Source: an uncultured Desulfospira sp.
GTDB lineage: Bacteria > Desulfobacterota > Desulfobacteria > Desulfobacterales > Desulfobacteraceae
Assembly (NCBI GenBank): GCA_963663165.1
Contig: OY760175.1
Coordinates: forward strand, 1,824,001-1,888,000
DNA length: 64,000 nucleotides
Direction: 5' to 3'
The notes under the pieces are model-generated. The model did no database searches. It saw nothing but the letters and a program-made list of their open reading frames with translations, and was not told where the DNA came from. This document shows, one piece after another, positions 37,332 through 64,000 of this stretch. How positions within the stretch are numbered: position 1 is the first letter of the stretch; the number at the start of each line of letters is the position of its first letter. The position numbers were made by a program, and so were the translations under genes.

Positions 37332-39201
37332 ATCGGGTAGGTCGGGGGCTTTACAGCCCCTTTCCCCCCTCAGAACCGTACGTGACAGTTTCCCGTCATA
37401 CGGCTCAAGCATTTCTAAGGCTGAGCCTTGCGGGGCCGCCCGGCTGTTTTCTCTTGCCAATGCTGAAATTTACAGTTATTTCATTACATATTTTCTCGGC
37501 CGCTGTGACAGGGATCACCTTTGGTTTCACCCGTCTTGCCCAGTGGATTTTATCCATGAAGGCCTGCACATTTTTCCTGGATGGTTTAATGAGCAGTTTG
37601 CCGTCATACTTACGAACGTTTTGGCCCAGAAAATCGAATCCCCGGTCAATTCGGGTAATCAGGGTCTTTTCTTCAGACAGGGATAGATCCCGTTCCGAGA
37701 GAAATCTGATTATGGCCGGTTTGACCTTGTCTTCAAGAAGTTCCCGGGTTGCACCGGTAATAATGAAATCATCAGCATACCGAATGACGTTGATTTTGGA
37801 ACTGATGTCCTTACCGTTGCGTCTGTCCCTGACAGGGGCAACAGATCCGGCAGTCCCTTCAATGCCGTCCAGAACCATGTTGGCCAGTGTGGGAGAGGCA
37901 ATGCCGCCTTGCGGCGTTCCCCGGAGGGATATGGTCGATCATCCAGTCATGGATAGTTTCATCAAATCAGGCTTTAATATCCGCTTCAAGTATCCAGACC
38001 GGCGAGGTTTTCTTGGCCAGTGTATTAAAGCATTGGGATATGGCGTCCGCACATCGCCTGTATGACCTGAATCCGTATGAATTGTGGTCGGCCAGTGTTT
38101 CTGCTATCGGCTCCACTGCCAGTTTATACAATGCCTGAACAGCCCTGTCGATCATTGTGGGAATACTTAACGAACGTTTCTTGCCGTTCTTTTTGGGAAT
38201 ATAGATCCGCCTGAGCGGTGATGGCTGGTATCCTCTCCGTTTGAGGTTGCCTGCTGCCTGGAATTTCTGCCTGGCGGTTTTCCAGGTGACGTTGTCGACA
38301 CCCGGAGTGCGTTTCCCTTTATTGGAGGTCACGCGTTTTACAGCTAACAGCTTTGCCTGGTAAGAGTGGGTCAGAAGCCACTGGAGGGCCTTGGCCCGTC
38401 CGTATCTTCCTTCTTTCACAGCCTTTGCGATACGCATTTGCAGTCTTTTAACAGCTTCATAAATGGCTTTCCAATGAATGGACTTCCAATTCCTGAAACT
38501 GCCGATGGGCGCACCAGCTGTTGCCGTCATTTGCCTTCCCATCTTCAAAGATTCTCCAGACTATCTCGCAAAGAAACACCTGCCCGGGTGTGCCTGTAGC
38601 CACACCCGCCGGACGTCAGCTCCCTTTCGGGCCGGATAATGTTGAAGGTCAGTAGATCCATCTCAATCCGTATCCACCTCATTACAAGACGGCATTCGCT
38701 TCTTCCTGCATCTTATTCCCGCACCCCCATCAGTGTGCCTTGCGGTTTCACCTGCCGAATGTTCCCGGCGAAGATACGGGGTTTCCACGTTCCGCATTAT
38801 TGCCAATTAGTGGATGACTTAGGCCTGCCCTCTGCACCGGCGGCGCAACATCTCCGTGCAGGCAGTTGAGAAACCTGCATCCTGACCGCTCACCTTTTGG
38901 TCCAAGCTTACCAGCCTCTTTAGCTTGTTCTCCCTGACGGTACTTACGGAACATTCAACTACTTTGACCATATCATCCAAACCCTTGCCCTCACCCGGAT
39001 TGAGGCTTCCAGGAGGGTATCTGCCTCACGGCTTCCACCCCTTCCACAGTTGCGGAATTCGGTACGTTGTCGGTTGGGCTTTACACCGTTGCCGGATGCA
39101 CCGACCACCGCATGCCATCTAGGGTACCGGCAGGAGAATGCCGGGTTTGGTCAGGACCGACTGGCCCGCCAAACAGCCAATAATGCGACTTCGTGTCGCA
39201 C
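37332..39201 (-). mobile_element. Group II intron copy 1 (CL-like/IIB), defective RT
   Basis: 5' GTGCG at 39201; DV GAGCCGTATGACGGGAAACTGTCACGTACGGTTC; 3' CTACCCGAT at 37332. Confidence 0.92.
37405..38548 (-). pseudogene. Intron-encoded reverse transcriptase/maturase pseudogene
   Basis: LLAVKRVT.NKG..TPGVD and RYADD present; relative to copy 5 it has a TGC>TGA nonsense change and a 71-bp deletion. Confidence 0.9.
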
Positions 39202-39334
39202 CGACAACGGGGAGCTGAGGGGCCAGGCTTTTAAACCCCAAAAAACTCCGATAAAAAGTTTAATTTTCCTGAACCAGGGACTCCCGAAAAGGCCGCGCCA
39301 GTAAGCCTGGTCCCTCTCCGGCGTTTTGTTGGCC
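39202..39334 (-). other. attC site A
   Basis: R'' GGCCAAC directly after the vapC stop; inverted arms GAGAGGGACCAGGCTT/AAGCCTGGCCCCTC; R' GTTGTCG. Confidence 0.88.
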
Positions 39335-39720
39335 TAATTTTTGGAATAGACCGCTTTTAAATTTTCAATCATCGGGTAATGTTTGATATTTAGCGTTTTA
39401 AGCTGAGCATTTTTTGAATGACACGTTGCAGCAATGATGGCATCAGCCAATCCTACGCCATGAGATTTGCCGAAATCACGTTTATATAGTCCACCAATCT
39501 TAGCAATTTCAGAGGTAATTGGAATGACGTCAAAAAGGGAAACAAAATTATTCAAAATCGTTAATTCTTGTTTCCCCCTTACCCCTGCATAAAGTTCAGC
39601 GATCACTATCGTGGATAATATTATTTGAGATGCATTGTCATTTATAAAATCAACAGCTTGCTGATAGCCTCGTAAAAAATCAATAAGAACATCAGTATCA
39701 GGAAGGAATAATTGCGCCAT
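39334..39720 (-). CDS. vapC: PIN-domain toxin (VapC family)
   Basis: DTDVLID, AEL..G, LADAIIAAT, TLN.KHY. Confidence 0.9.
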   Translation of the reverse strand: MAQLFLPDTDVLIDFLRGYQQAVDFINDNASQIILSTIVIAELYAGVRGKQELTILNNFVSLFDVIPITSEIAKIGGLYKRDFGKSHGVGLADAIIAATCHSKNAQLKTLNIKHYPMIENLKAVYSKN

Positions 39721-39722
39721 TT

Positions 39723-39956
39723 TTATTCCCTGTCCCATTCAGAACGCATTGTTTTAAAATCGGGGATATCTGACCGATCTTTCCAGAGGCCAGCGGTTTC
39801 ACATAATATTTTTTTTCGTCTTTCCTGACTTGCCTGTTCAATTAAAATATCAATTGCTTCTCGGATCAGTTCGCTTTGTTTTTTCCCTTGGATTTCTGAA
39901 AGAATGGCCAATTCAGTTCGTTGCTGATCAGTCAAATATATTTGAGTTCGTATCAT
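39723..39956 (-). CDS. RHH/CopG antitoxin
   Basis: MIRTQIYL...SELIREAID; directly upstream of the PIN toxin. Confidence 0.85.
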   Translation of the reverse strand: MIRTQIYLTDQQRTELAILSEIQGKKQSELIREAIDILIEQASQERRKKILCETAGLWKDRSDIPDFKTMRSEWDRE

Positions 39957-40014
39957 TGTGAATCTCCCTTTTTGATGTATACATTATAGTTGTACATCAC
40001 GAGGGTTTTGTCAA

Positions 40015-40077
40015 GGCCAACGGTAAGCTCACCGGACCGGCGTTTTATGCCGGGTCCGGTGAAGCGTTTGGTTATAC
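40015..40077 (-). other. attC site B (short, 63 bp)
   Basis: GTATAAC-CAAAC-GCTTCACCGGACC...GGTCCGGTGAGC-TTACC-GTTGGCC; R' is complementary to the R'' of the vapBC cassette. Confidence 0.92.
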
Positions 40078-40082
40078 CAATT

Positions 40083-40907: not shown

Positions 40908-40937
40908 TTCAAAAACATCAGTTTTTTATTCTGGTAT

Positions 40938-41472
40938 CTCGCGGTAGGAACGCCGGTTACCCGACGCCCCCCGCACAGACCCGGACGTGCGGTTTTCCCG
41001 CATCCGGTTCCTCGGTTATACTCGCTTTCGTGTAAGACATCCGTTTATGTAAACGCTCGATGTCGCCTGTTAACCACTCGCATCCTTGGTTTGGCAATAC
41101 CCAAAAGAGCCACTGCTCTGGTAAAGACTTCCCAGGTGAAGCTTTTCCGCTTCCCACCTCGACGATTCAACCACTTGAATGCACACTCTTCGGCCCAGCT
41201 GTAAAAATGCCATAATGCCGACAGGTTACCTGGTACATTATAATAGTTGTAATAGCCGCGCAACCGTCTATTCAACCCTTTTATAAAGGTGATTCCTTTT
41301 AAATGACGGTTATCCTTTATCCATTCCTTGATTCGCCGGCAGGCTCCTTGCAATTTCTTTGGCGCAGTCCGTTGTTTAACTTTCACGGTACCGGTTCTGT
41401 CTTTTTCCCAGAAGAGTTCAAAGCCTAAAAAGCTTATCCGTACTTTCATACCGGGATGGAAACGATTAAACC
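40938..41472 (-). mobile_element. 3' remnant of a second, unrelated group II intron (class E-like), truncated by IS66
   Basis: RT7/X-domain remnant (FLGF..., LRGYYNYY...WLNRR); DV GAACCGGATGCGGGAAAACCGCACGTCCGGGTC; DVI ending CTACCGCGAG. Confidence 0.85.
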
Positions 41473-41551
41473 GTGTCCCTTCGGTAAGCCTGCATGAATT
41501 AAGTTTTCGCAGCTGATATAACGGTCCCATCAACATTTTAAGGAAGGACCC

Positions 41552-42315: not shown

Positions 42316-42360
42316 TTTTTTTCGTACGTTCGAACCCAAAATCTATTATAAGACGTTGCC

Positions 42361-43257
42361 ATGACAGATGACATCGTACTTACATATAGAGGCAGGACGG
42401 CAACCCGTGATGATATTGCCTTCATCAACCGGTTAATAAAGGATAACCCCCAAGCCAGCCGTTTGGCATTGTCAAAAATGCTGTGCACGGAATGGAATTG
42501 GGTTCAGCCCAACGGTAATCTTCGTGACATGATTGCCAGAGGATACATGCTGGCACTTCACAGGCAGGGGCATATCACCCTTCCAGCCAGAAAGCAGACT
42601 CCCAATAATCCATTTTTGAACCGAAAAAAACCGGCAAAAATACAGATAGATCAAACCCGGGTGACGGCCGGTCTTAATGAGCTCACACCCCTTGATATTG
42701 AACTGGTTAAAAATACCCCCAATGAGGCATTGTTCAATAGCCTGATCGAGCACCATCATTATCTGGGATATTGCCATCCAGTTGGAGAGCAGCTCAAGTA
42801 CATGGTTTTTTATCAAAAAAGGCCTGTGGCATGTTTTTCATGGTCATCGGCACCACTGCATATTGGTGCCAGGGACCGGTACATCGGATGGGAGAAAAAA
42901 CACAGGGATCACAATCTTTGTTACATTGCATATAACAGCCGCTTTTTGATTTTACCTTGGTTCCGGGTGCCTCACCTGGCCTCCTGTCTTTTGGGTTACA
43001 TGGCCAGAAACCTGTCAAAAGACTGGGAGCGTATCTATTGCCATCCTGTTTATTACCTTGAGACATTCGTCGATACCGAATTATTTTCAGGAACCTGTTA
43101 CAAGGCCTCGAACTGGCAATATCTTGGAGAGACAACCGGGCGAGGCAAGCATGAACGCCGGCATATCAAGACCAGATCAATCAAAGCGGTCTGGGGATAT
43201 CCCTTGGTGAAAAATTTTAGAACCCTCATGACAAAGCTGCCCGATGAAATCATTTAG
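42361..43257 (+). CDS. DUF4338 (DruA-like) protein
   Basis: HHYLG, RD.YIGW, NSRFLILPW, LETFVD, GTCYKASNW..LG.T.GRG. Confidence 0.8.
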   Translation: MTDDIVLTYRGRTATRDDIAFINRLIKDNPQASRLALSKMLCTEWNWVQPNGNLRDMIARGYMLALHRQGHITLPARKQTPNNPFLNRKKPAKIQIDQTRVTAGLNELTPLDIELVKNTPNEALFNSLIEHHHYLGYCHPVGEQLKYMVFYQKRPVACFSWSSAPLHIGARDRYIGWEKKHRDHNLCYIAYNSRFLILPWFRVPHLASCLLGYMARNLSKDWERIYCHPVYYLETFVDTELFSGTCYKASNWQYLGETTGRGKHERRHIKTRSIKAVWGYPLVKNFRTLMTKLPDEII

Positions 43258-44959: not shown

Positions 44960-45090
44960 TCCGAACGGGGAGCTGATGGGGCAGGCTTTTGAACCCCAAA
45001 ACTCTCGATAAAAAGTTGAATTTTCCTGAACCAGGGACTCCCGAAAAGGCCGCGCAGTAAGCCTGGTCCCTCTCCACCGTTTTGTTCGGC
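44960..45090 (-). other. attC site C (intron-free)
   Basis: R'' GCCGAAC ... AGCTCCCC-GTTCGGA; close homologue of attC A and E. Confidence 0.88.
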
Positions 45091-45251
45091 ATTTATGGAT
45101 TGTCAGGTACGGTACTTCCAATAACCAGGCTTACGGTGCTCATGGGCAACAGCCGCTATGATGATCTTTTCACCCCGTATGAAAAATGGAATATAATACG
45201 GAAATACCGGGCAATTCACTCTTCTATAACCACCAGAACGTTCTCTCCAAA

Positions 45252-47527: not shown

Positions 47528-47960
47528 ATCTGTAATATATCAACCTTCACTTTATTTGTCATGGTCTATTTCTTTAGAGATCGGGTAGCCGGGGGTAGTT
47601 GTCTACCCCAGGCCCCCTCAGAACCGTACGTGACAGTTTCCCGTCATACGGCTCAAGCATTTCTAAGGCTAAGCCTGGCGGGGCCGCCCGGTTGTTTAAG
47701 CAATAATGAAATTTACAGTTATTCCATAGCATGCTTCTTTGAGCATCCGCCAGGGAAGTACAGTTCTTTTTTCCCTGTTCAAAAAACCAGTGCTGACGCA
47801 TGAAAATTTATAGTCAATGATATCAATGACGCAGCTCGATATCCAAAATTATTTTGTCGCAAAATTTAAATAGACAAAATTTCGGCCTTTTGATAATGTA
47901 GCATAGGGTACGAATGAGCGCCCCCCCAATCGAGACACTACATTTGAAGAGGAGGATGTC

Positions 47961-50851: not shown

Positions 50852-50860
50852 AACATCTTA

Positions 50861-51265: not shown

Positions 51266-51267
51266 AG

Positions 51268-51822: not shown

Positions 51823-53486
51823 AGAACCTGAGCCTTGATGACCGTTTTTATTTGCTGCTCCATAAAAAAATCATGAATAAAACCGGATCAGCCAAAAGAA
51901 GGTCCAAAAAATATTACAAAGACCAGTACAGGAAAACCGGCATTATCCCGACGCCCCTTCTACTGGTTGAAAAAGGGATTATGGACGGCCGCAAATGCAG
52001 CGGCCGGCCCCGGTCCATAGATGAACAAACCAAAAGGCGGTTTATCGAAATGGTCAAGGCCTCCTGTGACCCGTCATCCCAGGGGTTTATTTTTATTACC
52101 CGAAAAGCCAGAACCATTAAAAATTACCACTATTGGCTTGAAAGAGAATTGGGAAAAACCATCAGCCTTCCGGCACTCAGGCGATGTGCCCAAAGGGAAG
52201 GCCTTAAATTTTACCTGGAAAAAGAAGATTTTGAAGAAAATGCCCCGGTGAAAAACGCATTCAAGCCTGTTCCGGTGTTTGGCCTGATACAGGTAGACGG
52301 TTGCAACTTTCGATATTTAAAAATCAAAAATGAGGCTGGCCACTGGCAAAAACCCCAAGTCATTGAAACGTTTGATACCGGTTCCCGGTACATGTTTGAA
52401 CTTGATGCCTATTTCGATGAAAGCAGCTTAAGCTCAGTGGATTTGTTTAACCGGTTTTTGCTTTCCACCCCATTTCCCCAGAAGAAAGTCCGGTTCAGGC
52501 CGGATAACGCCACAGGATTTGTAAATCTCAAAAGAGTCATCAACGCCTTGAATATAAAACATTCCGTTCCCGGAGGATTTTATCTGGCGCCGGATTTTTC
52601 AAGGGTAAGTGCCCCCAGGGACAAGGCCCATCTTGAGTCCTCCCATCGCAGTCTTCATAATTTTGAAATCCGAATCATCAAGGCGTTTGAAGACAGGATT
52701 GTAAAGACCGTTCCAGGGGTTATCTTCAATAATAAGAAAAAAGAAAAAATCACTGTGACACTCCTTGATATTACACTCCGGGATTTAAGACACAGCCCCC
52801 TGATAAAAGAATACCGCCACGAACATAACCACACCAAACATTATTTTAGCGAAAATGGAAAGATCAGTGCATGGGTTCCGGCACAAAAGCTGGAAGAATT
52901 TTTATCAAGGCAAGCCGATATCCTTACCTTTTCACCGGATGAGGTGCAGGAATATATGAAGTATGGCTACAGGAAAATAAAAGCCACTGTATCTAACAAA
53001 AGAACCATTCGCCATGACAACCGGATCTATTGTGTAACCAGTGGTACAGACCGGTTCAGCAGGCATAAAAGTACACCGGTGCAAATATCAGTATATAAGG
53101 GCAAGCTGTTTATTTTTGAACGGGGGGAAGACGGCATACTATTGGGCGAAGCCCTTGCCACAAAGCCGTTTGACAAACCACCTGACCCAAAATCTGTACC
53201 AGTGGCCCCGGATGAACTCGACATGATGATCATTTTTCTGGAAAAGCACAACATGGCCGTCGACCGGCGAGTCTTAATTGAAGCTTATCATAGCGGCCTC
53301 ACTCTGGCCCGGGCTCAACAAGTGCTTCATCATAATCAATCCAGGTACAAGAATTATATGAAAAAGATGCGGCAACCTGAAACACAGAAAAAGCAGGCGG
53401 TATTCAATGCCTTTATGCTTGACTGCCGGAAATTGATCAATACAAACCATGTGGCCACGTATGCATCCTGCGGAGATTTAACATGA
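51819..53486 (+). CDS. Integrase-core (DDE) transposase
   Basis: SGRPRS HTH, QVDG, DTGSR, PDN..GF, P.DKA.LE. Confidence 0.75.
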   Translation: MKNLSLDDRFYLLLHKKIMNKTGSAKRRSKKYYKDQYRKTGIIPTPLLLVEKGIMDGRKCSGRPRSIDEQTKRRFIEMVKASCDPSSQGFIFITRKARTIKNYHYWLERELGKTISLPALRRCAQREGLKFYLEKEDFEENAPVKNAFKPVPVFGLIQVDGCNFRYLKIKNEAGHWQKPQVIETFDTGSRYMFELDAYFDESSLSSVDLFNRFLLSTPFPQKKVRFRPDNATGFVNLKRVINALNIKHSVPGGFYLAPDFSRVSAPRDKAHLESSHRSLHNFEIRIIKAFEDRIVKTVPGVIFNNKKKEKITVTLLDITLRDLRHSPLIKEYRHEHNHTKHYFSENGKISAWVPAQKLEEFLSRQADILTFSPDEVQEYMKYGYRKIKATVSNKRTIRHDNRIYCVTSGTDRFSRHKSTPVQISVYKGKLFIFERGEDGILLGEALATKPFDKPPDPKSVPVAPDELDMMIIFLEKHNMAVDRRVLIEAYHSGLTLARAQQVLHHNQSRYKNYMKKMRQPETQKKQAVFNAFMLDCRKLINTNHVATYASCGDLT

Positions 53487-54145
53487 AGGCAGATTTTATC
53501 AGTGACAAACGAAGGGTATCATACCTGAGCGCCACTTATAGCCGGATCTACCGGGGCCGGAGCGTACTCATTGAGGGAGATTTTGGAGCGGGAAAAACCA
53601 GGTTTTTAAAACTGCTTCGTCCCAAAAAACTTCATGCCGTATGGGTAGAGTCCCTGTTCAACATACACGAAACCCTGGCATCCATACTCAAAGAATTGAA
53701 CTATGACACCACAGCCACATATCGCAGAACTCCCCAGTACCTGAAAATGATCTGCAACCTGTCCAACTGCTTTATTATTATTGATGAGGCCAATGATCTG
53801 GATACCAGGGTCTGGCCATATCTTAAGCGGATCATTGATGCCGGTGTTCCTATTGTTTTTGCAGGGCTTCCAAAGGTCAGGACCTATTTGATTCGCAATC
53901 ACCCTGATATCCTCAGCCGGTTGAAAACCCTGATTTTATATCCCATAGAGGTTGAGGGCTTTATCGAACAATATAAAGATATCCAGCAGGAAGCCGTTGA
54001 GCAAATTTATATGGCGGTCAAAGGCGACATGCGTAAATTTAAAGAAATCTGTACTGACTGCCGGGACAAGGCAAAGGAATTGAACCACCAATTTGTTGAC
54101 ATTAATCTTGCCCTGGAGTTTATATCTGACCTTCCTCCCCAGTAA
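53483..54145 (+). CDS. AAA ATPase (TnsC/MuB/ExeA-like)
   Basis: GDFGAGKT, IIIDEA, VFAG.P, SR, GDMR. Confidence 0.85.
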   Translation: MKADFISDKRRVSYLSATYSRIYRGRSVLIEGDFGAGKTRFLKLLRPKKLHAVWVESLFNIHETLASILKELNYDTTATYRRTPQYLKMICNLSNCFIIIDEANDLDTRVWPYLKRIIDAGVPIVFAGLPKVRTYLIRNHPDILSRLKTLILYPIEVEGFIEQYKDIQQEAVEQIYMAVKGDMRKFKEICTDCRDKAKELNHQFVDINLALEFISDLPPQ

Positions 54146-55647
54146 TCCCTGAAAAGTAGATCCGTAAAAACAGGCCACTTCTGATTTAACCGGAAGATGG
54201 CCTGTTTATATTTTGACCTTAATTGATTAACGCAATTTTTCGCCTGGATATACCTGTGAAAATCAGGGAACCACAGATTGTTTTTGAATCTTTTTTGAAC
54301 CGTTACATTAATTTGCAACTTTCAATATTTTTGACTGCCAACCTAACCTACTAAATTTATATGAAAAACCATTTCTTTTTTGAAATAATGAACGAAAAAA
54401 AATCCGTTACATTATTTGAATGTGAGCAATTGGAACGTCATGAAAGGGTATCATGCCTTGATGCGCCTGGGCCATATGTTTAACGTTTTGGCCAGATACT
54501 CGCAGCGGCTTGCCAGGATTATTGAAGATACCGGCGCACGGGGCCTGATTCGTTTAGTCCGGGATACCATGTCCGGCCCGTGGCTGGATTACATGTGGCT
54601 GGAAGATCGTCTGTCCACTCCCTTTCAACTCCGATTAGTATGACGGCAACGACGGACGGGTAATCGAAAACACTCTCCCAAGCAGAGAGGTGGGAACGCT
54701 ATGTTCGGACCGAAGGACCGTCTTTCGTTTCGGCCATAGTCAGTGTCTGAAGGACTGCCTTTTTGAATTAAAAAAGGCTGGATCTCCCCCCAAAGGGAGT
54801 GGTTAGATCGACTAAAGCCAACCTTTTTTTATTCATGCGTCAGCACTGTCAAAAAACATACGTCCTTTGAAAATGCCTCTGGATGTGCATGCCGTGTGCT
54901 TCTCTAACAACCTTTGCGATACTCATCTACAGTCTTTTAACAGTATAAACTGCTGATGGGCGCACCAGCTATTGCCGTCATTTGCTTTCCCATCCTCAAA
55001 GATTCTCCAGACTCTCTCGCAAAGAAACACCTGCCCGGGTGTGCCTGTAGCCACACCCGCCGGACGTCAGCTCCCTTTCGGGCCGGGTGATGTTGGGATG
55101 TTCTCCTCAACCCGTATCCACCTTATTACAAGATTGGCCTTCGCTTTTTCCTGCATCTTACTCCCGCACCCCCATCTGTGTGCCTTACGGTTTCACCTGC
55201 CGAATGTCCCCGGCGAGGATACGGGGTTTCCACGTTCCACATTATTGCCAATTAATGGATGACTTAGGCCTGCCCACTGCACCGGCGGCGCAACATCTCC
55301 GTGCAGGCAGTTGAGAAACCTGCATCCTGACCGCTAACCTTTTGGTCCAAGCTTATCAGCCTCTTTAGCTTGTTCTCCCTGACGACGCTTGAAGAACATT
55401 CAATTAATTTGACCATATCATCCAAACCCTTGCCCTCACCCGGAATGAGGCTTCCAGGAGGGTATCCGCCTCACGGCTTCCACCCCTTCCGCAATTGCGG
55501 AATTCGGTACGTTGTCGGTTGGGCTTCACACCGTTGCCGGATGCACCGGGAACCGCATGCCACCTAGGGTACCGGCAGGAGAATGCCCGGGTTTGGTCAG
55601 GACCGACAGGCCCGCCAAACAGCCAATAATGCGACCTCGTGTCGCAC

Positions 55648-55774
55648 CCGAACGGGGAGCTCAGCCGACCGGGGCATACAGCCGAGCAGATTGTCGAAGC
55701 CAAGTTTTTTCGAAAACCAAGGACTTTCGAAAAGCCGCTATCCCCCCCGGGTCGGCTGCAGCGTTTTGTTCTCT
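55648..55774 (-). other. attC site D
   Basis: R'' AGAGAAC-AAAAC-GCTGCAGCCGACC...GGTCGGCTGAGC-TCCCC-GTTCGG|intron. Confidence 0.88.
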
Positions 55775-55805
55775 TTATATTCTTGAATGGTTACCCCGGC
55801 CCCTT

Positions 55806-56393: not shown

Positions 56394-56843
56394 AGTTAAA
56401 ACTATAACGCCATGTGTTAAATGTCAAGCGTGTGTTTTTAAGAAATCGGGTAGCCGGGGGTAGTTATCTACCCCAGGCCCCCTCAGAACCGTACGTGACA
56501 GTTTCCCGTCATACGGCTCAAGCATTTCTAAGGCTAAGCCTTGCGGGGCCGCCCGGTTGTTTGAGCAATAATGAAATTTACAGTCATTTCATAGCATGCG
56601 TCCTTGGGCATCGGCCAGGAAGTACTGTTTTTTTCTATAACCGCAAATGACAGTTGGATTTTTTCAACCAACTGATTTTTAATTCAATTAATACAACTTG
56701 TTTCAATTTGCAAAGTATATGTTTTAGTCGTTGAATCGAAAAACTCTAAGATTCTGGGCGAAATGGATTATTTTTCCTGTTATTGCTTCGTAGTATATGA
56801 TATTATTTGGCACAAATATCATATACTACGAAGAGAGGTTGTC

Positions 56844-57509
56844 ATGCCTATTATCGACGTTCAAAAAATTGAATCGGCCAGATCAACGCTTAAAAAACAA
56901 AAAATTTTTACCCTCAAAAAGCTTGTTTCAATTCTGGATTGTTCCTCCAGAACTGCCCAAACAAAACTTAAACAGTGGAAGACCTACACAAGTTACAATC
57001 AAAACGGGAAGTATTATACTTTGCCTGAAATCCCTCAATTTGACGTTTATGGTATATGGCAATTTAAAAATGCCGCGTTCTCTAAGTATGGTAATCTAAA
57101 AAAAACCATTATCCATTTAGTGAACTCCTCATCTGAAGGGCTTACCGGCAGACAACTTGGTGAACTTCTTGGGTTATCACCACAATCCTTTGTGCATCAT
57201 TTCCGTAGTTGTCCGGGTATCTGTCGAGAAAAGCACGCTGGTGTCTATGTCTACTTCTCTGACAACATTTCAATATTTAAAAATCAAGTAAAACAAAGGA
57301 GTTCCCTTGTCCTCCGTCAAGCGGCTATTTCCATTTCTGACCAGGAAGCAGTCATGATTCTGGTTGCTATTATCAGGCATCATGGCATATCCGCAGAAGA
57401 CATTTTGGGCTTGCCGGAGATCAAAAAGAGCAAACTAAAGCCGGCTAATATCCAAGGATTTATGGAGTCTCATGAGTTGTTAAAAAAAATTCCGGATTCC
57501 AAGCATTAA
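56844..57509 (+). CDS. IS ORF A (winged-helix-like)
   Basis: RBS GAGG before ATG 56844; TSYN.NG.YYTL; ends just past an A8 run. Confidence 0.7.
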   Translation: MPIIDVQKIESARSTLKKQKIFTLKKLVSILDCSSRTAQTKLKQWKTYTSYNQNGKYYTLPEIPQFDVYGIWQFKNAAFSKYGNLKKTIIHLVNSSSEGLTGRQLGELLGLSPQSFVHHFRSCPGICREKHAGVYVYFSDNISIFKNQVKQRSSLVLRQAAISISDQEAVMILVAIIRHHGISAEDILGLPEIKKSKLKPANIQGFMESHELLKKIPDSKH

Positions 57510-59314
57510 AACTGCTCAAAAGCTTTATCTCCAAGCTGACTGGGTCCGTCCAAACTAGTGTGCTATTCTCAGCAAAGCCGACTTTGCATTTTTACCCGGA
57601 AATTTTAAAATGCCCTGATTGTAATTCTACACTCCATGTTCAGAAAACCGATACGAAGACCAGGGTCACCATGGACATCGGTGCCTATTTTGCCAAGGAA
57701 ACGGTATTGTATTGCCCCCACGGTCACGGAACGTTCAGGTCCGAACAGCTTCGAAACCTTGTACCCAGGGGCGGCACTTTCGGGTTTGATGTCATTGTGG
57801 AGGTGGGGTTTGCACTTTTTGTCCGTTGTCTCAGCAATCAGGAGGTCATGGCTGAATTGGCGATCAAGAATGTATTCATCTCTGAACGGGAGATCAGCTT
57901 TCTGGGCCGTAAGTTTATCATTTATCTTGCCCTGGCTCACCGACAGAGCCGGCCGGCTCTGCGAAAGTTCTTCACAAGCAGGGGAGGATATATCCTTCAT
58001 GTGGATGGAACTTGTGAAGATGATAGCCCCAATCTATTTTGCGGCCTTGACGGACTCTCAGAACTGGTCCTTGATACGGTAAAAATTTCTTCAGAGAAAA
58101 AAGATGAGCTCATCCCATTTTTCCGTAGCATCAAAGAGCAGTATGGTGAACCAAGGGCACTCGTACACGATATGGGTAAAGGGATTGTCAGTGCGGTGGA
58201 GGAAGTTTTCCCAGGGACACCCGATTTTATATGTCATTTTCATTTCCTGCGTGACATTGGCAAAGACCTGCTAGCTGATGAATATAGTTTTTTGCAGAAA
58301 CGGTTAAAGAAACTCAAGGTTCGACCTGCATTGAGGAGGCAGGCCAAGTATCTTGAGAAAAAAATTGATCCGGTCGGCAAGGATATTGATGAAATTATTG
58401 AGAGCCTTCAAAGTGGGAATTGGCAGGCAACTGATTTCGATCATATCCCCACGATTATGGCATATGCTTTAATCCATTGGATATTTGACTATCCAAATCA
58501 ATCCAACGGATATGGTTTCCCTTTTGACCGTCCATACCTTGATTTTTATCGACGTCTTCAAGATGTTCTCCGGTTGCTGGAACAAATCATGACCGTGAAC
58601 CTCAGTGAGGCAGCAAATTTAAACAGAGCCTTTTCCCAATTATATAAAGTAGTCATAAAAGTCGTAGAAGATAAGCGTCTTAATGATCTTGCCAAAAACA
58701 TGGAATCAAAGGCAGCCGTATTTGACAAGCTGCGTTGTGCTATGCGAATTGCCCTTCCTGATGGCAAAAATGGCATTAATGATAATGGCGATTCCATGAA
58801 CATGAAAAGTATTGAAGAAAAAGTGACTGAATTCAGGAACTGGCTCCTTGAGAATAAACACAGACAAAAAACCTATGCTAACATGGTGGCACAGATTGAC
58901 AAATACTGGGAAAAGCTCTTTGCCGACCCGATACCAGTCGTCACATCGGACGGAATTTTTACGGTCCAACCACAGAGGACGAATAACCTTCTGGAGAGAT
59001 TTTTCCGGGATGAAAAACGACGAGGTCGGAAAAAAACCGGCATGGGATCGCTGAACAAAATGCTAAAAGCGGTCCTTGCCGACACGCCGCTGGTGCAAAA
59101 TTTAAAAAACGACAAGTATATGGAGATTATTCTCAATGGATGTTCCAACCTGGCAGAAAGGTTTTCACAAATTGATGCTGATCTGGTACAAAAAGAGCTG
59201 ACCAAGGCGGCTGAAAACAATTGCAAAATATTCCCGGGGATCAAAAAAATGATAAGGGATACTGAATTAACGGTAAAAATCTCAACGCTGTTTTGTCCAG
59301 CAGATGCAAAATAA
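57482..59314 (+). CDS. IS ORF B transposase (probably fused to ORF A by a -1 frameshift)
   Basis: LHVDGT, VHDMG, CHFH (CxxH), RTNN.LE; the frame is open upstream through the A8 run at 57482-57489. Confidence 0.75.
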   Translation, partial: KKNSGFQALKLLKSFISKLTGSVQTSVLFSAKPTLHFYPEILKCPDCNSTLHVQKTDTKTRVTMDIGAYFAKETVLYCPHGHGTFRSEQLRNLVPRGGTFGFDVIVEVGFALFVRCLSNQEVMAELAIKNVFISEREISFLGRKFIIYLALAHRQSRPALRKFFTSRGGYILHVDGTCEDDSPNLFCGLDGLSELVLDTVKISSEKKDELIPFFRSIKEQYGEPRALVHDMGKGIVSAVEEVFPGTPDFICHFHFLRDIGKDLLADEYSFLQKRLKKLKVRPALRRQAKYLEKKIDPVGKDIDEIIESLQSGNWQATDFDHIPTIMAYALIHWIFDYPNQSNGYGFPFDRPYLDFYRRLQDVLRLLEQIMTVNLSEAANLNRAFSQLYKVVIKVVEDKRLNDLAKNMESKAAVFDKLRCAMRIALPDGKNGINDNGDSMNMKSIEEKVTEFRNWLLENKHRQKTYANMVAQIDKYWEKLFADPIPVVTSDGIFTVQPQRTNNLLERFFRDEKRRGRKKTGMGSLNKMLKAVLADTPLVQNLKNDKYMEIILNGCSNLAERFSQIDADLVQKELTKAAENNCKIFPGIKKMIRDTELTVKISTLFCPADAK

Positions 59315-60151
59315 ATACCAACCGTCATTTGCGGTCATAGGTTTTTTTTCCTGGTCAAAGACATACGTCCTTTGAAAATGCCTTGGATGTAAATGCCGTA
59401 CGCTCCTTTAACAACCTTTGCGATACGCATCTACAGTCTTTTAGCAGCATAAAGCTGCTGATGGGCGCACCAGCTAATGCCGTCATTTGCTTTCCCATCT
59501 TAAAAGATTCTCTAAACTCTCTCGCAAAGAAACACCTGCCCGGGTGTGTCTGTAGTCACACCCACCGGACGTCAGCTTCCTTTCGGACCGGGTAATATCG
59601 GGGTTTTCTCCTCAACCCGTATCCACCTCATTACGAGATGGCCTTCGCTTTTTTCCTGCATCTTACGCCCGCACCCCCATCAGTGTGCCTTGCGGTTTCA
59701 CCTGCCGAATGTTCCCGGCGAAGATACGGGGTTTCCACGTTCCACATTATTGCCGATTAATGGATGACTTAGGCCTGCCCACTGCACCGGCGGCGCAACA
59801 TCTCCGTGCAGGCAGTTCCGACACCTGCATCCTGACCGCTCACCTTTTGGTCCAAGCTTACCAGCCTCTTTAGCTTGTTCTCCCTGACGACGCTTAAGGA
59901 ACATTCAATTAATTTGACCATATCATCCAAACCCTCGCCCTCACCCGGATTGAGGCTTCCAGGAGGGTATCCGCCTCACGGCTTCCACCCCTTCCGCAAC
60001 TGCGGAATTCGGTACTTTGTCGGTTGGGCTTCACACCGTTGCCGGATGCACCGACCACCGCATGCCACCTAGGGTACCGGCAGGAGAATGCCGGGTTTGG
60101 TCAGGACCGACAGGCCTGCCAAACAGTCAATAATGCGACCTCGTGTCGCAC

Positions 60152-60280
60152 CACAACGGGGAGCTGAGGGGCCAGGCTTTTAAACCCAAAAAGCGCCAAT
60201 AAAAGTTTAAATTTCCCTGAACCAGGCACTCCCAAAAGGCCGCTCTGTAAGCCTGGTAACTCTCCAACGTTTTGTTCAAG
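60152..60280 (-). other. attC site E
   Basis: R'' CTTGAAC ... CAGCTCCCC-GTTGTG|intron; homologue of attC A and C. Confidence 0.88.
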
Positions 60281-60487
60281 TAAGCCGCTCCGCGGCAGGC
60301 GGCAGAATGAAAGCTTGACCCATAAGCACGGTTGCCATACTATTTGTGTATGAATCAATTCGCAATTTCTCTAACATTCAAAGCGTTTTCATTTTATCGA
60401 AAACCACAAGATATTGTAGTTTTGAACCCTTCCCCTTAACCTACATATTGTGTTTTATCACTCTTTTTCCAACCGCGGCTTCTTGAA
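60281..60487 (-). other. ORF-less gene cassette
   Basis: Starts GTTCAAG and ends CTTGAAC (perfect complement); no credible ORF. Confidence 0.75.
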
Positions 60488-60548
60488 CTAAAGGATTAGT
60501 ACCGAGCCTCGTTCCTCGGCACGGTTACTAATCCTTTATTTGTTCTCC
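60482..60548 (-). other. attC site F (short, intron-free)
   Basis: GGAGAAC-AAA-TAAAGGATTAGTAACCG...CGGTACTAATCCTTTA-GTTCAAG. Confidence 0.75.
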
Positions 60549-60831
60549 TTTTATTTTGATTTAAGATAACTTTTAAATCCCTATAATAATTCTCATGCGG
60601 TCCTATCATGATTAATTCAAGGTCATCGCCTACAAAACGATAAGAAAGCAGGTACTGAATAGTTTGTATTTTGAATTTATGAACAAAAACACCTCTTAAA
60701 TCTCCCTTTTTTTCTGTACCAATAGTTGGATTTTCAGCAATGTTTTTTACTTCGCTATCAAGTATCTCTTTTTCCTGCTTGGAAAATTTTTTAACCTTTC
60801 GTTCAAAAGATCGGGACTGAAAAATTTTCAT
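60496..60831 (-). CDS. RelE/ParE-family toxin
   Basis: F.R.VKK, NP.IG..K.GDL..V.V.KF, GPHENYYRDLK; reads into attC F. Confidence 0.85.
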   Translation of the reverse strand: MKIFQSRSFERKVKKFSKQEKEILDSEVKNIAENPTIGTEKKGDLRGVFVHKFKIQTIQYLLSYRFVGDDLELIMIGPHENYYRDLKVILNQNKRRTNKGLVTVPRNEARY

Positions 60832-60837
60832 TTTTTG

Positions 60838-61056
60838 TTACTCAAATTTATATTCGGTTGTTTCTCCGTAGTCCAATTCAGCTATACCAATGAGAATTTC
60901 TTTTATAAGATCATAGGTTAAATCGGGATTTTCTTCAGCACATTTTCCAATCCGAGCCCAATGTTCAATTTGCCCAGTTAAAGATCGCTTATCGATTTTG
61001 CTGAATATTTTAGCTTCCCTAACTAATTCGTCAGTGATTCTTACTGCAGTTGTCAT
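60838..61056 (-). CDS. ParD-like antitoxin
   Basis: RS..GQIEHWARIG..AEENPDL. Confidence 0.85.
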   Translation of the reverse strand: MTTAVRITDELVREAKIFSKIDKRSLTGQIEHWARIGKCAEENPDLTYDLIKEILIGIAELDYGETTEYKFE

Positions 61057-61150
61057 GATATAATCCCCCATTTATTTTTCTTTTAAATATAATGGTTCGA
61101 ATTGCACTTTGCAACTTAAAATTGCACTTTGCGACATTGTGGGTTTTGAG

Positions 61151-62142
61151 ATCGGGTAGCCGGGGGTAGTTATCTACCCCAGGCCCCCTCAGAACCGTAC
61201 GTGACAGTTTCCCGTCATACGGCTCAAGCATTTCTAAGGCTAAGCCTTGCGGGGCCGCCCGGTTGTTTGAGCAATAATGAAATTTACAGTCATTTCATAG
61301 CATGCGTCCTTGGGCATCGGCCAGGAAGTACTGTTTTTTTTCCTGGTCAAAGACATACGTCCTTTGAAAATGCCTTGGATGTAAATGCCGTACGCTCCTT
61401 TAACAACCTTTGCGATACGCATCTACAGTCTTTTAGCAGCATAAAGCTGCTGATGGGCGCACCAGCTAATGCCGTCATTTGCTTTCCCATCTTAAAAGAT
61501 TCTCTAAACTCTCTCGCAAAGAAACACCTGCCCGGGTGTGTCTGTAGTCACACCCACCGGACGTCAGCTTCCTTTCGGACCGGGTAATATCGGGGTTTTC
61601 TCCTCAACCCGTATCCACCTCATTACGAGATGGCCTTCGCTTTTTTCCTGCATCTTACGCCCGCACCCCCATCAGTGTGCCTTGCGGTTTCACCTGCCGA
61701 ATGTTCCCGGCGAAGATACGGGGTTTCCACGTTCCACATTATTGCCGATTAATGGATGACTTAGGCCTGCCCACTGCACCGGCGGCGCAACATCTCCGTG
61801 CAGGCAGTTCCGACACCTGCATCCTGACCGCTCACCTTTTGGTCCAAGCTTACCAGCCTCTTTAGCTTGTTCTCCCTGACGACGCTTAAGGAACATTCAA
61901 TTAATTTGACCATATCATCCAAACCCTCGCCCTCACCCGGATTGAGGCTTCCAGGAGGGTATCCGCCTCACGGCTTCCACCCCTTCCGCAACTGCGGAAT
62001 TCGGTACTTTGTCGGTTGGGCTTCACACCGTTGCCGGATGCACCGACCACCGCATGCCACCTGGGTACCGGCAGGAGAATGCCGGGTTTGGTCAGGACCG
62101 ACAGGCCTGCCAAACAGCCAATAATGCGACCTCGTGTCGCAC
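61151..62142 (-). mobile_element. Group II intron copy 4, ORF-less, uninterrupted (992 nt)
   Basis: GTGCG at 62142, DV/DVI intact, CTACCCGAT at 61151; only decayed traces of the RT ORF. Confidence 0.92.
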
Positions 62143-62269
62143 CGAGAACGGGGAGCTGAGCCGACCGGGGCATACAGCCGAGCAGGTTGTCGAAGCCAAG
62201 TTTTTTCGAAAACCAGGAGCTTCCGAAAAGCCGCGAGCCCCCCGGGTCGGCTGCAGCGTTTTTTTGTGC
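62143..62269 (-). other. attC site G (R'' mutated to GCACAAA)
   Basis: Homologue of attC D; ...GCTCCCC-GTTCTCG|intron. Confidence 0.82.
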
Positions 62270-62274
62270 CAATA

Positions 62275-62604
62275 TTATTGACTGAGACGAGAACTGACGA
62301 GCCTATTTATACTTACCCCTGATTCTGCTGCTTGGATCGCCAAACTTCTATGAACTTCCGGTGGAACACGAACCATAAATTTACCACTATAATTTTTTGA
62401 AACGATTGGCTGTGGAATTCTTTCATCATTGTCTTTCATATCTTGAATGACCGATTCCACCGTTTTACGAATACCTTTTAATGCTGATTCAGGAGATTTG
62501 GCCAGCCAGCTTAAGCTTGGGAATTCCGCACATAAGCCGATATATTCTTCGTCTTCAGGAGACCAAGTAACCCTATATGTATAATGATCATTTAGTAGTG
62601 TCAC
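62275..62604 (-). CDS. hicB: HicB-family antitoxin
   Basis: YTYRVTWS.ED..Y.G.C.EFPSLS, YSGKF.VR.P..VHR.LA..A...GVS.N. Confidence 0.9.
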   Translation of the reverse strand: MTLLNDHYTYRVTWSPEDEEYIGLCAEFPSLSWLAKSPESALKGIRKTVESVIQDMKDNDERIPQPIVSKNYSGKFMVRVPPEVHRSLAIQAAESGVSINRLVSSRLSQ

Positions 62605-62848
62605 TTTCTTCCTCCAATCTTTCAATAGCCTTGATCACTTGCTTAACTTGATAGGCTTTTGCTTTTCCTTTACTGTTTTGAATATTTACCCGAGGGTCAC
62701 CTTGCCATGGTGTTTTATATATTCGATGACTGCTACCAGATTGGCGAGCCTTTCCAAAATAATGTTCACAGACCCTGCATAAATCTGTAAATTTTACATT
62801 GGTTGGATTTTTATAAATCTCATTTAATAGCTTTTCAATTTGGCCCAT
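62588..62848 (-). CDS. hicA: HicA-like toxin
   Basis: F.DL..VC..YFG..RQ...SH..YKTPW.GDPRVNIQ...G.AK.YQVKQV. Confidence 0.85.
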   Translation of the reverse strand: MGQIEKLLNEIYKNPTNVKFTDLCRVCEHYFGKARQSGSSHRIYKTPWQGDPRVNIQNSKGKAKAYQVKQVIKAIERLEEESDTTK

Positions 62849-62849
62849 G

Positions 62850-62884
62850 TTTATATGATACTAATATTGATACTATTGTCAACG
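62850..62884 (-). promoter_or_regulatory. Cassette-internal sigma70 promoter/operator of hicAB
   Basis: TTGACA-16 nt-TATCAT, overlapping repeated TAGTATCA boxes. Confidence 0.6.
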
Positions 62885-62895
62885 GTGTTTTTAGG

Positions 62896-64000
62896 ATCGG
62901 GTAGGTCGGGGGCTTTACAGCCCCTTTCCCCCCTCAGAACCGTACGTGACAGTTTCCCGTCATACGGCTCAAGCATTTCTAAGGCTGAGCCTTGCGGGGC
63001 CGCCCGGCTGTTTTCTCTTGCCAATGCTGAAATTTACAGTTATTTCATTACATATTTTCTCGGCCGCTGTGACAGGGATCACCTTTGGTTTCACCCGTCT
63101 TGCCCAGTGGATTTTATCCATGAAGGCCTGCACATTTTTCCTGGATGGTTTAATGAGCAGTTTGCCGTCATACTTACGAACGTTTTGGCCCAGAAAATCG
63201 AATCCCCGGTCAATTCGGGTAATCAGGGTCTTTTCTTCAGACAGGGATAGATCCCGTTCCGAGAGAAATCTGATTATGGCCGGTTTGACCTTGTCTTCAA
63301 GAAGTTCCCGGGTTGCACCGGTAATAATGAAATCATCAGCATACCGGATGACGTTGATTTTGGAACTGATGTCCTTACCGTTGCGTCTGTCCCTGACAGG
63401 GGCAACAGATCCGGCAGTCCCTTCAATGCCGTCCAGAACCATGTTGGCCAGTGTGGGAGAGGCAATGCCGCCTTGCGGCGTTCCCCGGCCTGTTGGAAAG
63501 AATTTACCGTCCTCCATAAACCCGGAAGCCAGCCATTTGGTAAGGATCATCTTATCCATAGGGATATGGTCGATCATCCAGTCATGGCTGATTTCATCAA
63601 AGCAGGCTTTAATATCCGCTTCAAGTATCCAGACCGGCGAGGTTTTCTTGGCCAGTGTATTAAAGCATTGGGATATGGCGTCCGCACATCGCCTGTATGA
63701 CCTGAATCCGTATGAATTGTGGTCGGCCAGTGTTTCTGCTATCGGCTCCAATGCCAGTTTATACAATGCCTGAACAGCCCTGTCGATCATTGTGGGAATA
63801 CTTAACGGACGTTTCTTGCCGTTCTTTTTGGGAATATAGATCCGCCTGAGCGGTGATGGCTGGTATCCTCTCCGTTTGAGGTTGCCTGCTGCCTGGAATT
63901 TCTGCCTGGCGGTTTTCCAGGTGACGTTGTCGACACCCGGAGTGCGTTTCCCTTTATTGGAGGTCACGCGTTTTACAGCTAACAGCTTTGCCTGGTAAGA
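62896..64000 (-). mobile_element. Group II intron copy 5 (5' end beyond the window)
   Basis: 3' CTACCCGAT at 62896; near-identical to copy 1. Confidence 0.92.
62969..64000 (-). CDS. Intron RT, RT0-RT7 intact but maturase X domain truncated (partial at the window edge)
   Basis: RPLSIPT..DR, SYGFR, GTPQGG..SP, RYADD, FDFLG; RT-like sequence ends after KPSRKNV. Confidence 0.8.
   Translation of the reverse strand, partial: SYQAKLLAVKRVTSNKGKRTPGVDNVTWKTARQKFQAAGNLKRRGYQPSPLRRIYIPKKNGKKRPLSIPTMIDRAVQALYKLALEPIAETLADHNSYGFRSYRRCADAISQCFNTLAKKTSPVWILEADIKACFDEISHDWMIDHIPMDKMILTKWLASGFMEDGKFFPTGRGTPQGGIASPTLANMVLDGIEGTAGSVAPVRDRRNGKDISSKINVIRYADDFIITGATRELLEDKVKPAIIRFLSERDLSLSEEKTLITRIDRGFDFLGQNVRKYDGKLLIKPSRKNVQAFMDKIHWARRVKPKVIPVTAAEKICNEITVNFSIGKRKQPGGPARLSLRNA

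What the first reader, a model, noticed from the sequence alone, without database searches (positions are those of the whole stretch)
37332..64000. CL/IIB-type group II introns whose EBS loops match the integron attC R' box on the top strand
Seen: all four copies with a visible 5' end follow ...GCTCCCC-GTT(n2-3)G (GTTGTCG|39201, GTTCGG|55647, GTTGTG|60151, GTTCTCG|62142), in the same orientation as the cassette genes. Each copy has GGGAG (copy 1: 38930-38934) and a hairpin loop CnnAAC (copy 1: 38865-38870). These are complementary to CTCCC and GTTnnG with the usual IBS2/IBS1 spacing. Established: described attC introns are class IIC, lack EBS2 and insert in the bottom strand. The RT here (W..I.W...V..LQ.RI.KA...LLAV.RVT.N.G..TPGVD) looks CL-like. 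Inference: an independent intron lineage reads the invariant GTT crossover triplet by base pairing. It lands just 3' of the crossover, so the attC hairpin is left essentially intact and the intron becomes part of the next cassette, where integrase could move it.
Basis: partly seen in the sequence, partly recalled or inferred. Interest (0 to 1): 0.92.

Follow-up and report, generated by a model that had tools for sequence, protein, structure and literature searches.

The report
Mobile intron family homing into integron sites
A self-splicing mobile intron has multiplied in this bacterium by inserting, in the sense direction, right behind the recombination sites of its integron gene cassettes, which it appears to find by base pairing with the one triplet that all such sites share.

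Summary

- **Window copies.** It holds five minus-strand copies of one group II intron, four with a visible 5' end. Each 5' end follows an attC-like repeat ending GCTCCCC-GTT(n2-3)G.
- **Genome-wide.** 13 of 16 intron 5' ends sit there. 13 of 50 complete repeats are occupied. A bona fide integron integrase lies beside one array.
- **Intron class.** The reverse transcriptase (RT) matches the CL/IIB1 TeI4h RT at 555 bits, against 98-128 bits for IIC and ML RTs. It lacks an endonuclease domain.
- **Lineage.** In an RT tree, one 17-row clade (support 99) holds every relative whose EBS1 contains AAC and whose exon ends GTT plus 0-4 bases: 14 of 14 with a known exon. Several lie near integrases in other Desulfobacterota.

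Caveats:
- The two variable EBS1 bases are the most variable intron columns, but they match their resident sites only partly.
- No splicing, mobility or integrase-mediated transfer was shown.
- All window copies are RT-defective.
- One CL1 intron behind an attC was reported in 2021 (PMC7923331).
- This scan noted the same family elsewhere in this genome (e1-7817437).

The parts
37332..39201 (-). Intron copy 1, 1870 nt. The RT frame is broken by a stop, a 72-nt deletion and a deletion of the maturase region.
38930..38934 (-). EBS2 (GGGAG) of copy 1, intron positions 268-272. It lies in the single-stranded stretch 5' of a covarying hairpin.
38865..38870 (-). EBS1 (CTCAAC) of copy 1, intron positions 332-337, in the terminal loop of a hairpin with 7 covarying pairs.
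39202..39339 (-). attC-like repeat, occupied. R' GTTGTCG lies at 39202-39208 and the spacer CTCCC (IBS2) at 39210-39214.
39337..39738 (-). Cassette ORF with a PIN domain, directly upstream of that repeat.
44962..45094 (-). attC-like repeat, empty. It ends GCTCCCCGTTCGG and is followed by unique sequence.
54852..55647 (-). 5' part (mini-intron positions 1-794) of an ORF-less intron split by a 7068-nt insertion.
47580..47783 (-). 3' part (mini-intron positions 792-992) of the same split intron, including D5/D6.
55649..55779 (-). attC-like repeat, occupied, ending GCTCCCCGTTCGG.
59341..60151 (-). 5' part (positions 1-810) of an ORF-less intron split by a 2706-nt insertion sequence with an 8-nt duplication.
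56445..56634 (-). 3' part (positions 803-992) of that split intron, including D5/D6.
60153..60280 (-). attC-like repeat, occupied, ending GCTCCCCGTTGTG.
60499..60831 (-). Cassette ORF for a ParE-like toxin, downstream of the 61151-62142 intron.
61151..62142 (-). Uninterrupted ORF-less intron of 992 nt: D1-D3, remnants of D4, then D5 and D6.
62143..62274 (-). attC-like repeat, occupied, ending GCTCCCCGTTCTCG.
62896..64000 (-). 3' part of a 1934-nt intron whose 5' end lies 829 nt beyond the window. Its RT frame is open but lacks the maturase region.

Best explanation
These are copies of one endonuclease-less CL1/IIB1 group II intron family that retrohomes into the top (sense) strand of integron attC sites.

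Proposed target recognition. The intron RNA reads the site by base pairing.
- EBS1 (5'-C-nn-AAC) pairs with the R' box GTT-nn-G. Its AAC reads the invariant crossover triplet and its first C reads the base before the splice site.
- EBS2 (GGGAG) pairs with CTCCC in the spacer between L' and R'.
- Insertion falls after position 6 or 7 of R', which is 5-6 nt 3' of the G|TT crossover. The attC hairpin stays whole and the intron becomes the first part of the next cassette.

Proposed life cycle. In the sense orientation the intron can be transcribed with the cassettes and spliced out. The ORF-less and maturase-deleted copies, which include all those in this window, would depend on the RT of the single intact copy (genome 5573101-5575411). 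Without an endonuclease, cDNA priming would come from replication.

Shown here: class, copy distribution, site geometry, EBS positions, complementarity and lineage.
Inferred: splicing, retrohoming, supply of RT in trans, and priming.
For: Class.
- The RT has RVT_N, RVT_1 and GIIM domains and no HNH domain.
- It scores 555 bits to the TeI4h RT (6ME0), 128 to LtrA and 98-121 to IIC RTs.
- TeI4h is CL/IIB1 according to passages of PMC2882425.

Site.
- 13 of 16 intron 5' ends follow the repeat.
- 13 of 50 complete repeats are occupied.
- The 14 ends with the canonical 3'-end motif have 14 different 3' exons, starting C (9) or T (5), so they are separate insertions. A 15th D5/D6 remnant lacked the motif and was not scored.
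- An integrase scoring 456 bits against a cut-off of 265 lies divergently beside the 4.18-4.19 Mb array.

EBS positions.
- Across 37 non-redundant relatives, the own exon pairs with the EBS1 region at 5.49 of 6 positions, against 4.22 for other exons.
- For the EBS2 region the figures are 4.70 of 5 against 3.96. No permutation of 5000 reached either observed value.
- The EBS1 hairpin is 92.5% paired, and 7 of 7 pairs show compensatory changes.

Relatives in attC-like sites have matching EBS1 sequences: CATAAC/GTTATG, GCGAAC/GTTCGC, CTAACGC/GCGTTAG, TTAACG/CGTTAA and TAACGG/CCGTTA.

Integrases lie near relatives in the divergent geometry: 13 kb from L039, 41 kb from L038, 2.4 kb from L040 and, if contig C4 is its contig, about 6 kb from L089.

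An RT clade of 17 rows (SH-aLRT 99) holds 14 of 14 members with a known exon of the GTT type.

The sister species G006 shows three more attC-resident copies.

The nn positions 333 and 334 are the two most variable of 434 aligned columns in 14 copies.
Against: - None of the 12 attC-resident copies scored pairs at 6 of 6 positions, ungapped, with its own site. Own-site pairing barely exceeds permuted pairings: 819 of 10000 permutations reach it ungapped, and 370 of 10000 with one bulge allowed.
- Two occupied repeats carry CTTATC instead of CTCCC. Occupancy is 11 of 34 for CTCCC repeats and 2 of 16 for others, Fisher p = 0.18.
- Three 5' ends lie elsewhere: one behind a short hairpin, one a divergent fragment, and one directly behind another intron.
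- Only 1 of 5 ORF-bearing copies examined has an intact RT. That copy's EBS1 stem carries a 2-nt deletion variant.
- No data on splicing or mobility were obtained.
- The window's own array has no integrase nearby.
- A second GTT-reading clade, in a Bacteroidales MAG, has no integrase at E <= 1e-40.
Confidence: 0.8

Rival explanations
1. The intron recognises the attC hairpin as a structure, as IIC introns recognise terminators and attC bottom strands. On this view the EBS/IBS complementarity adds little.
For: In the DNA folds, the target bases lie just 3' of a long hairpin. One non-attC copy (genome 903578) also follows a hairpin. Pairing at the variable EBS1 positions is loose. The authors of PMC7923331 speculated on such a role.
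Against: Both EBS1 and EBS2 covary with exons across the family. Sub-lineages insert 1, 2, 3 or 4 nt after GTT, and the EBS1 register shifts to match. Non-attC relatives with the same RNA architecture home to ordinary gene sites. Structure and pairing could act together.
Confidence: 0.12
2. The copies spread as passengers of cassettes that the integrase duplicated or moved, or by recombination between arrays, and not by retrohoming.
For: Cassettes are duplicated between arrays: identical cassette starts occur at genome 1918590 and 5594608. The intron lies inside the cassette unit.
Against: The 14 ends with the canonical 3'-end motif have 14 different 3' exons. Upstream repeats belong to different subfamilies. 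No paralogous empty or occupied copy of any intron-bearing cassette exists in the genome. EBS1 alleles differ between copies.
Confidence: 0.05
3. The repeat is not an attC site but another kind of repeated palindrome. The link to integrons would then be incidental.
For: The window's array and the 5.5 Mb array have no integrase next to them. No attC covariance model could be run. The spacer is asymmetric, with 5 extra bases on the R' side.
Against: The repeat has AAC...GTT ends and L''/L' arms with extra bases on the '' arm. Short same-strand ORFs, including toxin-antitoxin genes, lie between repeats. An integrase above the curated cut-off lies divergently beside an array of the same repeat. 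Relatives lie near integrases in three or four other genomes.
Confidence: 0.03

Closest known systems
UHB.I2, a CL1/IIB1 intron from a soda-lake metagenome (Sonbol and Siam 2021, PMC7923331; abstract, sections 7 and 10, and passages read)
   Same: It has an endonuclease-less CL1 RT and a IIB1 RNA. It is inserted immediately behind an attC site, in the same orientation as the cassettes.
   Different: It is a single copy on one contig. The authors saw poor exon conservation and did not propose pairing with GTT. Its reported boundaries are UUGCG...GU. Here there is a multi-copy family, EBS1/EBS2 complementarity to R' and the spacer, and a clade of such introns. I could not place UHB.I2 in the tree because its sequence was not at hand.
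Thermosynechococcus elongatus TeI3/TeI4 introns (CL/IIB1; Mohr et al. 2010, PMC2882425, passages read; RT structure 6ME0)
   Same: TeI4h has the closest solved RT (555 bits). It also shows proliferation within one genome, ORF-less copies served by a few RTs, EBS families with diverged targets, and insertion into other introns and insertion sequences.
   Different: The TeI4h RT has an endonuclease domain, and its targets are unrelated genomic sites. Here all families share one repeated target class, and only two EBS1 bases diverge.
Group IIC-attC introns such as S.ma.I2 (as described in PMC7923331 and PMC4424553, passages read)
   Same: They are mobile group II introns specialised on integron attC sites and they lack an endonuclease domain.
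   Different: They have a class C RT and a IIC RNA without EBS2. They insert into the bottom strand at R'' (TTGT/T), antisense to the cassettes, and use the hairpin as the recognition element.

Membership tests
Group II intron, CL1 RT / IIB1 RNA | RT with N-terminal extension, RT fingers-palm and maturase (X) domains | tested here: met
   RVT_N 110.6 bits, RVT_1 130.2 bits and GIIM 78.8 bits in the intact copy.
Group II intron, CL1 RT / IIB1 RNA | RT closest to classified CL RTs and not to ML, class C or other classes | tested here: inconclusive
   555 bits to TeI4h (CL/IIB1), against 128 to LtrA (ML) and 98-121 to IIC RTs. No references for classes A, B, D, E, F or CL2 were available, so the assignment within the IIB-type classes rests on this one reference.
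Group II intron, CL1 RT / IIB1 RNA | Six-domain ribozyme with GUGYG...AY ends and D5/D6 | tested here: met
   RF02012 at 86-95 bits and RF00029 at 69-72 bits. The 5' end reads GTGCG and the 3' end reads ...CCCGAT.
Group II intron, CL1 RT / IIB1 RNA | Both EBS1 and EBS2 pair with the 5' exon | tested here: met
   Covariation in 37 relatives, with 0 of 5000 permutations reaching the observed value for either. GGGAG/CTCCC and CnnAAC/GTTnnG in this genome.
Group IIC-attC introns | Class C RT | tested here: not met
   IIC RTs (GsI-IIC, E.r., R.i.) score 98-121 bits, against 555 for the CL RT.
Group IIC-attC introns | No EBS2; insertion into the attC bottom strand, antisense to the cassettes | tested here: not met
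   EBS2 is present. The introns lie on the cassette sense strand.
Integron attC site | R'' ...AAC and R' GTT... at the ends of an imperfect inverted repeat, with extra bases on the R''/L'' arm | tested here: met
   Alignment of 13 repeats and DNA folds with unpaired bases on the '' arm.
Integron attC site | Arrays of short same-strand cassettes next to an integron integrase | tested here: inconclusive
   An integrase at 456 bits, above the cut-off, lies beside the 4.18-4.19 Mb array. The window's array and the 5.5 Mb array have none, so they are clusters of attC sites without an integrase.
Integron attC site | Match to the IntegronFinder attC covariance model; recombination by the integrase | not testable with these tools
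   No attC model or assay was available.

The most novel reading that the evidence does not exclude
A monophyletic CL1/IIB1 lineage, spread through Desulfobacterota and seen in metagenomes, has become a specialist of integrons. It reads the crossover triplet GTT with a fixed AAC in EBS1. It diversifies the two neighbouring EBS1 bases to follow the cassette-specific part of R'. It sits in the sense strand, where it can splice out of cassette transcripts, and it travels between arrays and hosts inside cassettes that the integrase excises and integrates.
Probability: 0.35. Interest if true: 0.8.

Novelty: new variant of a known kind. Interest (0 to 1): 0.6.

Why it matters
Until 2021, only class C introns were known to target integron attC sites. 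They use the bottom-strand hairpin and sit antisense, where they block cassette expression.

A second, unrelated intron lineage that finds attC sites by ordinary EBS/IBS pairing and sits in the sense strand would matter for three reasons.
- It would show convergent specialisation of retroelements on integrons.
- It would give a simple sequence rule (AAC in EBS1) for finding such introns.
- It raises a testable idea: introns and cassettes may move as one unit.

It would also offer a natural IIB intron aimed at a site present in every integron.

Tried and rejected
- **Public sequencing runs.** Only assembled contigs of four coded runs could be laid on 60300-62700. They break at the repeats. No contig joins precisely across the intron (61151-62142), and the single long joint (60537 to 62259, run X4) is not an intron-precise junction. 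This says nothing for or against splicing or empty alleles.
- **Replication strand bias.** Cumulative GC skew puts the origin near 4.0-4.2 Mb and the terminus near 0.74 Mb. The window's array would then lie on the lagging-strand template and the 5.5 Mb array on the leading-strand template, in a stretch of anomalous local skew. dnaA lies at 2.12 Mb. No consistent bias could be claimed.
- **Paralogous empty sites.** None were found for intron-bearing cassettes.
- **Same intron-plus-cassette unit behind a different attC in sister species G006.** The ParE cassette there is preceded only by a 144-nt intron remnant with no attC upstream, so the comparison was uninformative.
- **MFE fold of the 646-nt 5' region.** The z-score was -0.74, so the fold was not used.
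- **tblastn against plasmids.** It showed only the general CL1 family at about 54% identity, with no class labels.
- **Entropy ranking over 640 nt.** It was inflated by truncated copies, so I redid it over 430 nt.
- **First attempt to sort repeats by spacer type.** It mis-sorted them, so I redid it.
Full report
**What is in the window**

Rfam finds four group II D1 matches (RF02012, 86-95 bits) and six D5/D6 matches (RF00029), all on the minus strand. Comparison with the whole genome resolves five copies of one family:
- 39201->37332: 1870 nt, RT frame broken.
- 55647->47580: a 992-nt ORF-less form split by a 7068-nt insertion.
- 60151->56445: the same ORF-less form split by a 2706-nt insertion sequence with an 8-nt duplication.
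- 62142->61151: the uninterrupted 992-nt ORF-less form.
- A 1934-nt copy that ends at 62896 and starts beyond the window.

A sixth, weak D5/D6 match (40938-41012) belongs to a different intron.

The four visible 5' ends follow GCTCCCC plus GTTGTCG, GTTCGG, GTTGTG or GTTCTCG. All four copies carry GGGAG, and a loop C-nn-AAC, at the same aligned positions.

**The flank is an attC-type repeat**

The 125-135 nt upstream of the introns align as one repeat family with two subtypes. It starts ...ACAAAACG and ends ...GAGCTCCCCGTT. A profile of it finds 54 places in the 6.74 Mb genome, nearly all on the minus strand, in three arrays at 1.86-1.92, 4.18-4.19 and 5.54-5.61 Mb.

An integron integrase (TIGR02249, 456 bits against a cut-off of 265) lies at 4194663-4195604 on the plus strand. 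It is divergent from the 4.18-4.19 Mb array and about 1.4 kb from it. The window's array has no integrase next to it.

Several features match integron cassettes:
- Between repeats lie short minus-strand ORFs, such as a PIN gene and a ParE-like gene.
- The arms pair as L''/L', with unpaired bases on the R''/L'' arm.
- The bases after GTT differ from repeat to repeat, as expected when they belong to the next cassette.

The minus strand as read (AAC...GTT) is therefore the top strand, and the introns lie in it, sense to the cassettes.

**Distribution**

- Of 16 intron 5' ends in the genome, 13 lie directly behind such a repeat.
- The exceptions are one behind a short hairpin with AAC...GTT ends (903578), one divergent fragment (2945506), and one directly behind another intron's 3' end (4188777).
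- Of 50 complete repeats, 13 are occupied. In the window the figure is 4 of 5.
- The 14 ends with the canonical 3'-end motif have 14 different 3' exons, starting with C (9) or T (5). A 15th D5/D6 remnant lacked the motif. No intron-bearing cassette has a paralogue elsewhere. These are separate insertions, not duplicated cassettes.
- Joining the exons restores sequences like those at empty sites, for example GTTGTG|C. Insertion therefore falls after position 6 or 7 of R', 5-6 nt 3' of the canonical G|TT crossover.

**Intron class**

The one intact copy (genome 5575411->5573101, 2311 nt) encodes a 525-aa RT with RVT_N, RVT_1 and GIIM domains and no HNH domain.

Against solved structures it scores 555 bits to the TeI4h RT (6ME0), aligned over residues 7-489 of the query and 11-483 of 562. 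It scores 128 bits to LtrA and 98-121 bits to three IIC RTs. TeI4h is CL/IIB1 (PMC2882425, passages). No references for classes A, B, D-F or CL2 were available.

The other four ORF-bearing copies examined carry a frameshift, a 377-nt deletion of the maturase region, or stops. Every copy in the window therefore depends on an RT supplied in trans.

**EBS positions**

I collected 79 loci encoding relatives (47-70% identity) from species genomes and defined 49 intron 5' ends.

| Measure, 37 non-redundant introns | Own exon | Other exons | Permutations reaching observed |
|---|---|---|---|
| EBS1 region vs last six exon bases | 5.49 of 6 | 4.22 of 6 | 0 of 5000 |
| EBS2 region vs exon positions -5 to -15 | 4.70 of 5 | 3.96 of 5 | 0 of 5000 |

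The EBS1 bases lie in the loop of a hairpin whose seven pairs all show compensatory changes (92.5% of cells paired). The EBS2 bases lie in the strand 5' of a second covarying hairpin.

C pairs with exon position -1, AAC pairs with GTT, and GGGAG pairs with CTCCC at -8 to -12, with one base between.

**A lineage, not a single case**

Relatives whose exons end in GTT plus 0-4 bases have EBS1 loops containing AAC in the matching register:

| EBS1 | Exon end |
|---|---|
| CATAAC | GTTATG |
| GCGAAC | GTTCGC |
| CTAACGC | GCGTTAG |
| TTAACG | CGTTAA |
| TAACGG | CCGTTA |
| CTAACG | CGTTAG |

Their flanks show typical L'-spacer-R' ends. Three more came from metagenomes.

In an RT tree of 83 rows (IQ-TREE quick search, LG+G4), a clade of 17 rows with SH-aLRT 99 holds:
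- 14 GTT-type introns;
- two with no exon in hand;
- one inserted behind another intron.

No intron with an ordinary homing site falls in this clade (the first tree is).

Integrases above the cut-off lie 13 kb, 41 kb and 2.4 kb from three of these relatives, in the divergent geometry. A fourth lies about 6 kb away if contig C4 is its contig.

A separate clade in a Bacteroidales MAG reads CGTTR with YAACG, but that genome shows no integrase at E <= 1e-40.

The sister species G006 has three further copies behind the same repeat, plus one 3' remnant.

**Variable EBS1 bases**

Among 14 copies aligned over 434 columns, the two nn positions (333 and 334) are the two most variable columns. They are 2 of only 5 columns with three alleles. 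The alleles are CTCAAC, CCTAAC, CGGAAC and CCGAAC.

They match their resident sites only in part. Typically 5 of 6 positions pair. None of the 12 attC-resident copies scored pairs at 6 of 6 ungapped. Own-site pairing is only weakly better than permuted pairing: 819 of 10000 permutations reach it ungapped, and 370 of 10000 with one bulge allowed.

CGGAAC copies sit at GTTCTNG in 3 of 4 cases across the two genomes, which fits a one-base bulge.

Occupancy is higher for repeats with CTCCC (11 of 34) than for others (2 of 16), but not significantly so (p = 0.18).

Divergence of EBS sequences within a proliferating CL/IIB1 family is known from T. elongatus (PMC2882425).

**Mechanism**

The best reading is ordinary IIB retrohoming aimed at a repeated site. 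The fixed parts of EBS1 and EBS2 read the conserved GTT, the G before the splice site, and the spacer. The attC hairpin may help by exposing these bases in single-stranded DNA, since they lie just 3' of the stem in the DNA folds.

Sense orientation would allow transcription with the cassettes and splicing out of cassette transcripts. The lack of an endonuclease implies priming by replication.

None of these steps was observed. The strand-bias analysis was inconclusive, and the public runs gave only fragmented contigs.

That the intron lies inside the next cassette follows from the coordinates. That the integrase moves such cassettes is untested, and I found no comparative trace of it.

**Comparison with what is known**

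Reviews list attC targeting only for class C introns (PMC4424553, passages; PMC8876359, passages).

One paper (PMC7923331; abstract, sections 7 and 10, and passages) reports a single CL1/IIB1, endonuclease-less intron, UHB.I2, immediately behind an attC in sense orientation. It reports poor exon conservation and only speculates about a role for the hairpin.

Three full-text searches found no description of GTT-reading EBS1 or of a CL1 attC lineage. Subscription journals and supplements that I did not open could hold one.

I tested its claims independently here.

**Verdict**

It is a new variant of a known kind: a CL1/IIB1 intron lineage specialised on integron attC top strands through EBS/IBS pairing, with one thin precedent in print.

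Noticed in passing
window 56635-59340 and 47784-54851: Two ORF-less introns are split in D4 by mobile elements. One is a 2706-nt element with an 8-nt duplication and a Mutator-like transposase. The other is a 7068-nt element with a 3-nt overlap that carries a DruA-like ORF, a DDE transposase, a CHC2 zinc-finger ORF and an AAA_22 ORF.
   Followed up: partly
window 42361-43254 and 47961-48833: Two ORFs with a Druantia DruA domain (118 and 139 bits) each lie next to a transposase gene, IS66 in one case and DDE_Tnp_1_assoc in the other.
   Followed up: no
window 40938-41536: This is the 3' fragment of a different group II intron: RF00029 at 41 bits, a 163-aa ORF with only a GIIM match and no PDB relative. 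It ends where an IS66 element begins.
   Followed up: partly
window 60473-60546: A stretch of about 72 nt at the end of the ParE cassette recurs at 90-96% identity in many related genomes. It has very high contig depth in the public runs.
   Followed up: no
G000:C1:388063-388900 (outside the window): A 91-nt intron 5' fragment behind an attC-like repeat is followed at once by CRISPR-like direct repeats of about 37 nt.
   Followed up: no
G000:C1:4188777-4188778; L038:1891 and 4116; L058:1866: Introns of this family sit directly, or within 7 nt, behind the 3' end of another copy. This forms tandem introns both in this genome and in relatives.
   Followed up: partly
first 7-16 nt after GTT at many cassette starts, e.g. 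window 62880-62895: Cassette starts share a motif like YTTnAAAAC, in both empty and intron-bearing sites.
   Followed up: no
intron positions about 340-346 (copy at G000:C1:5573101-5575411 and five others): Six copies, including the only one with an intact RT, carry a 2-nt deletion variant of the 3' strand of the EBS1 hairpin. The variant weakens the stem.
   Followed up: no
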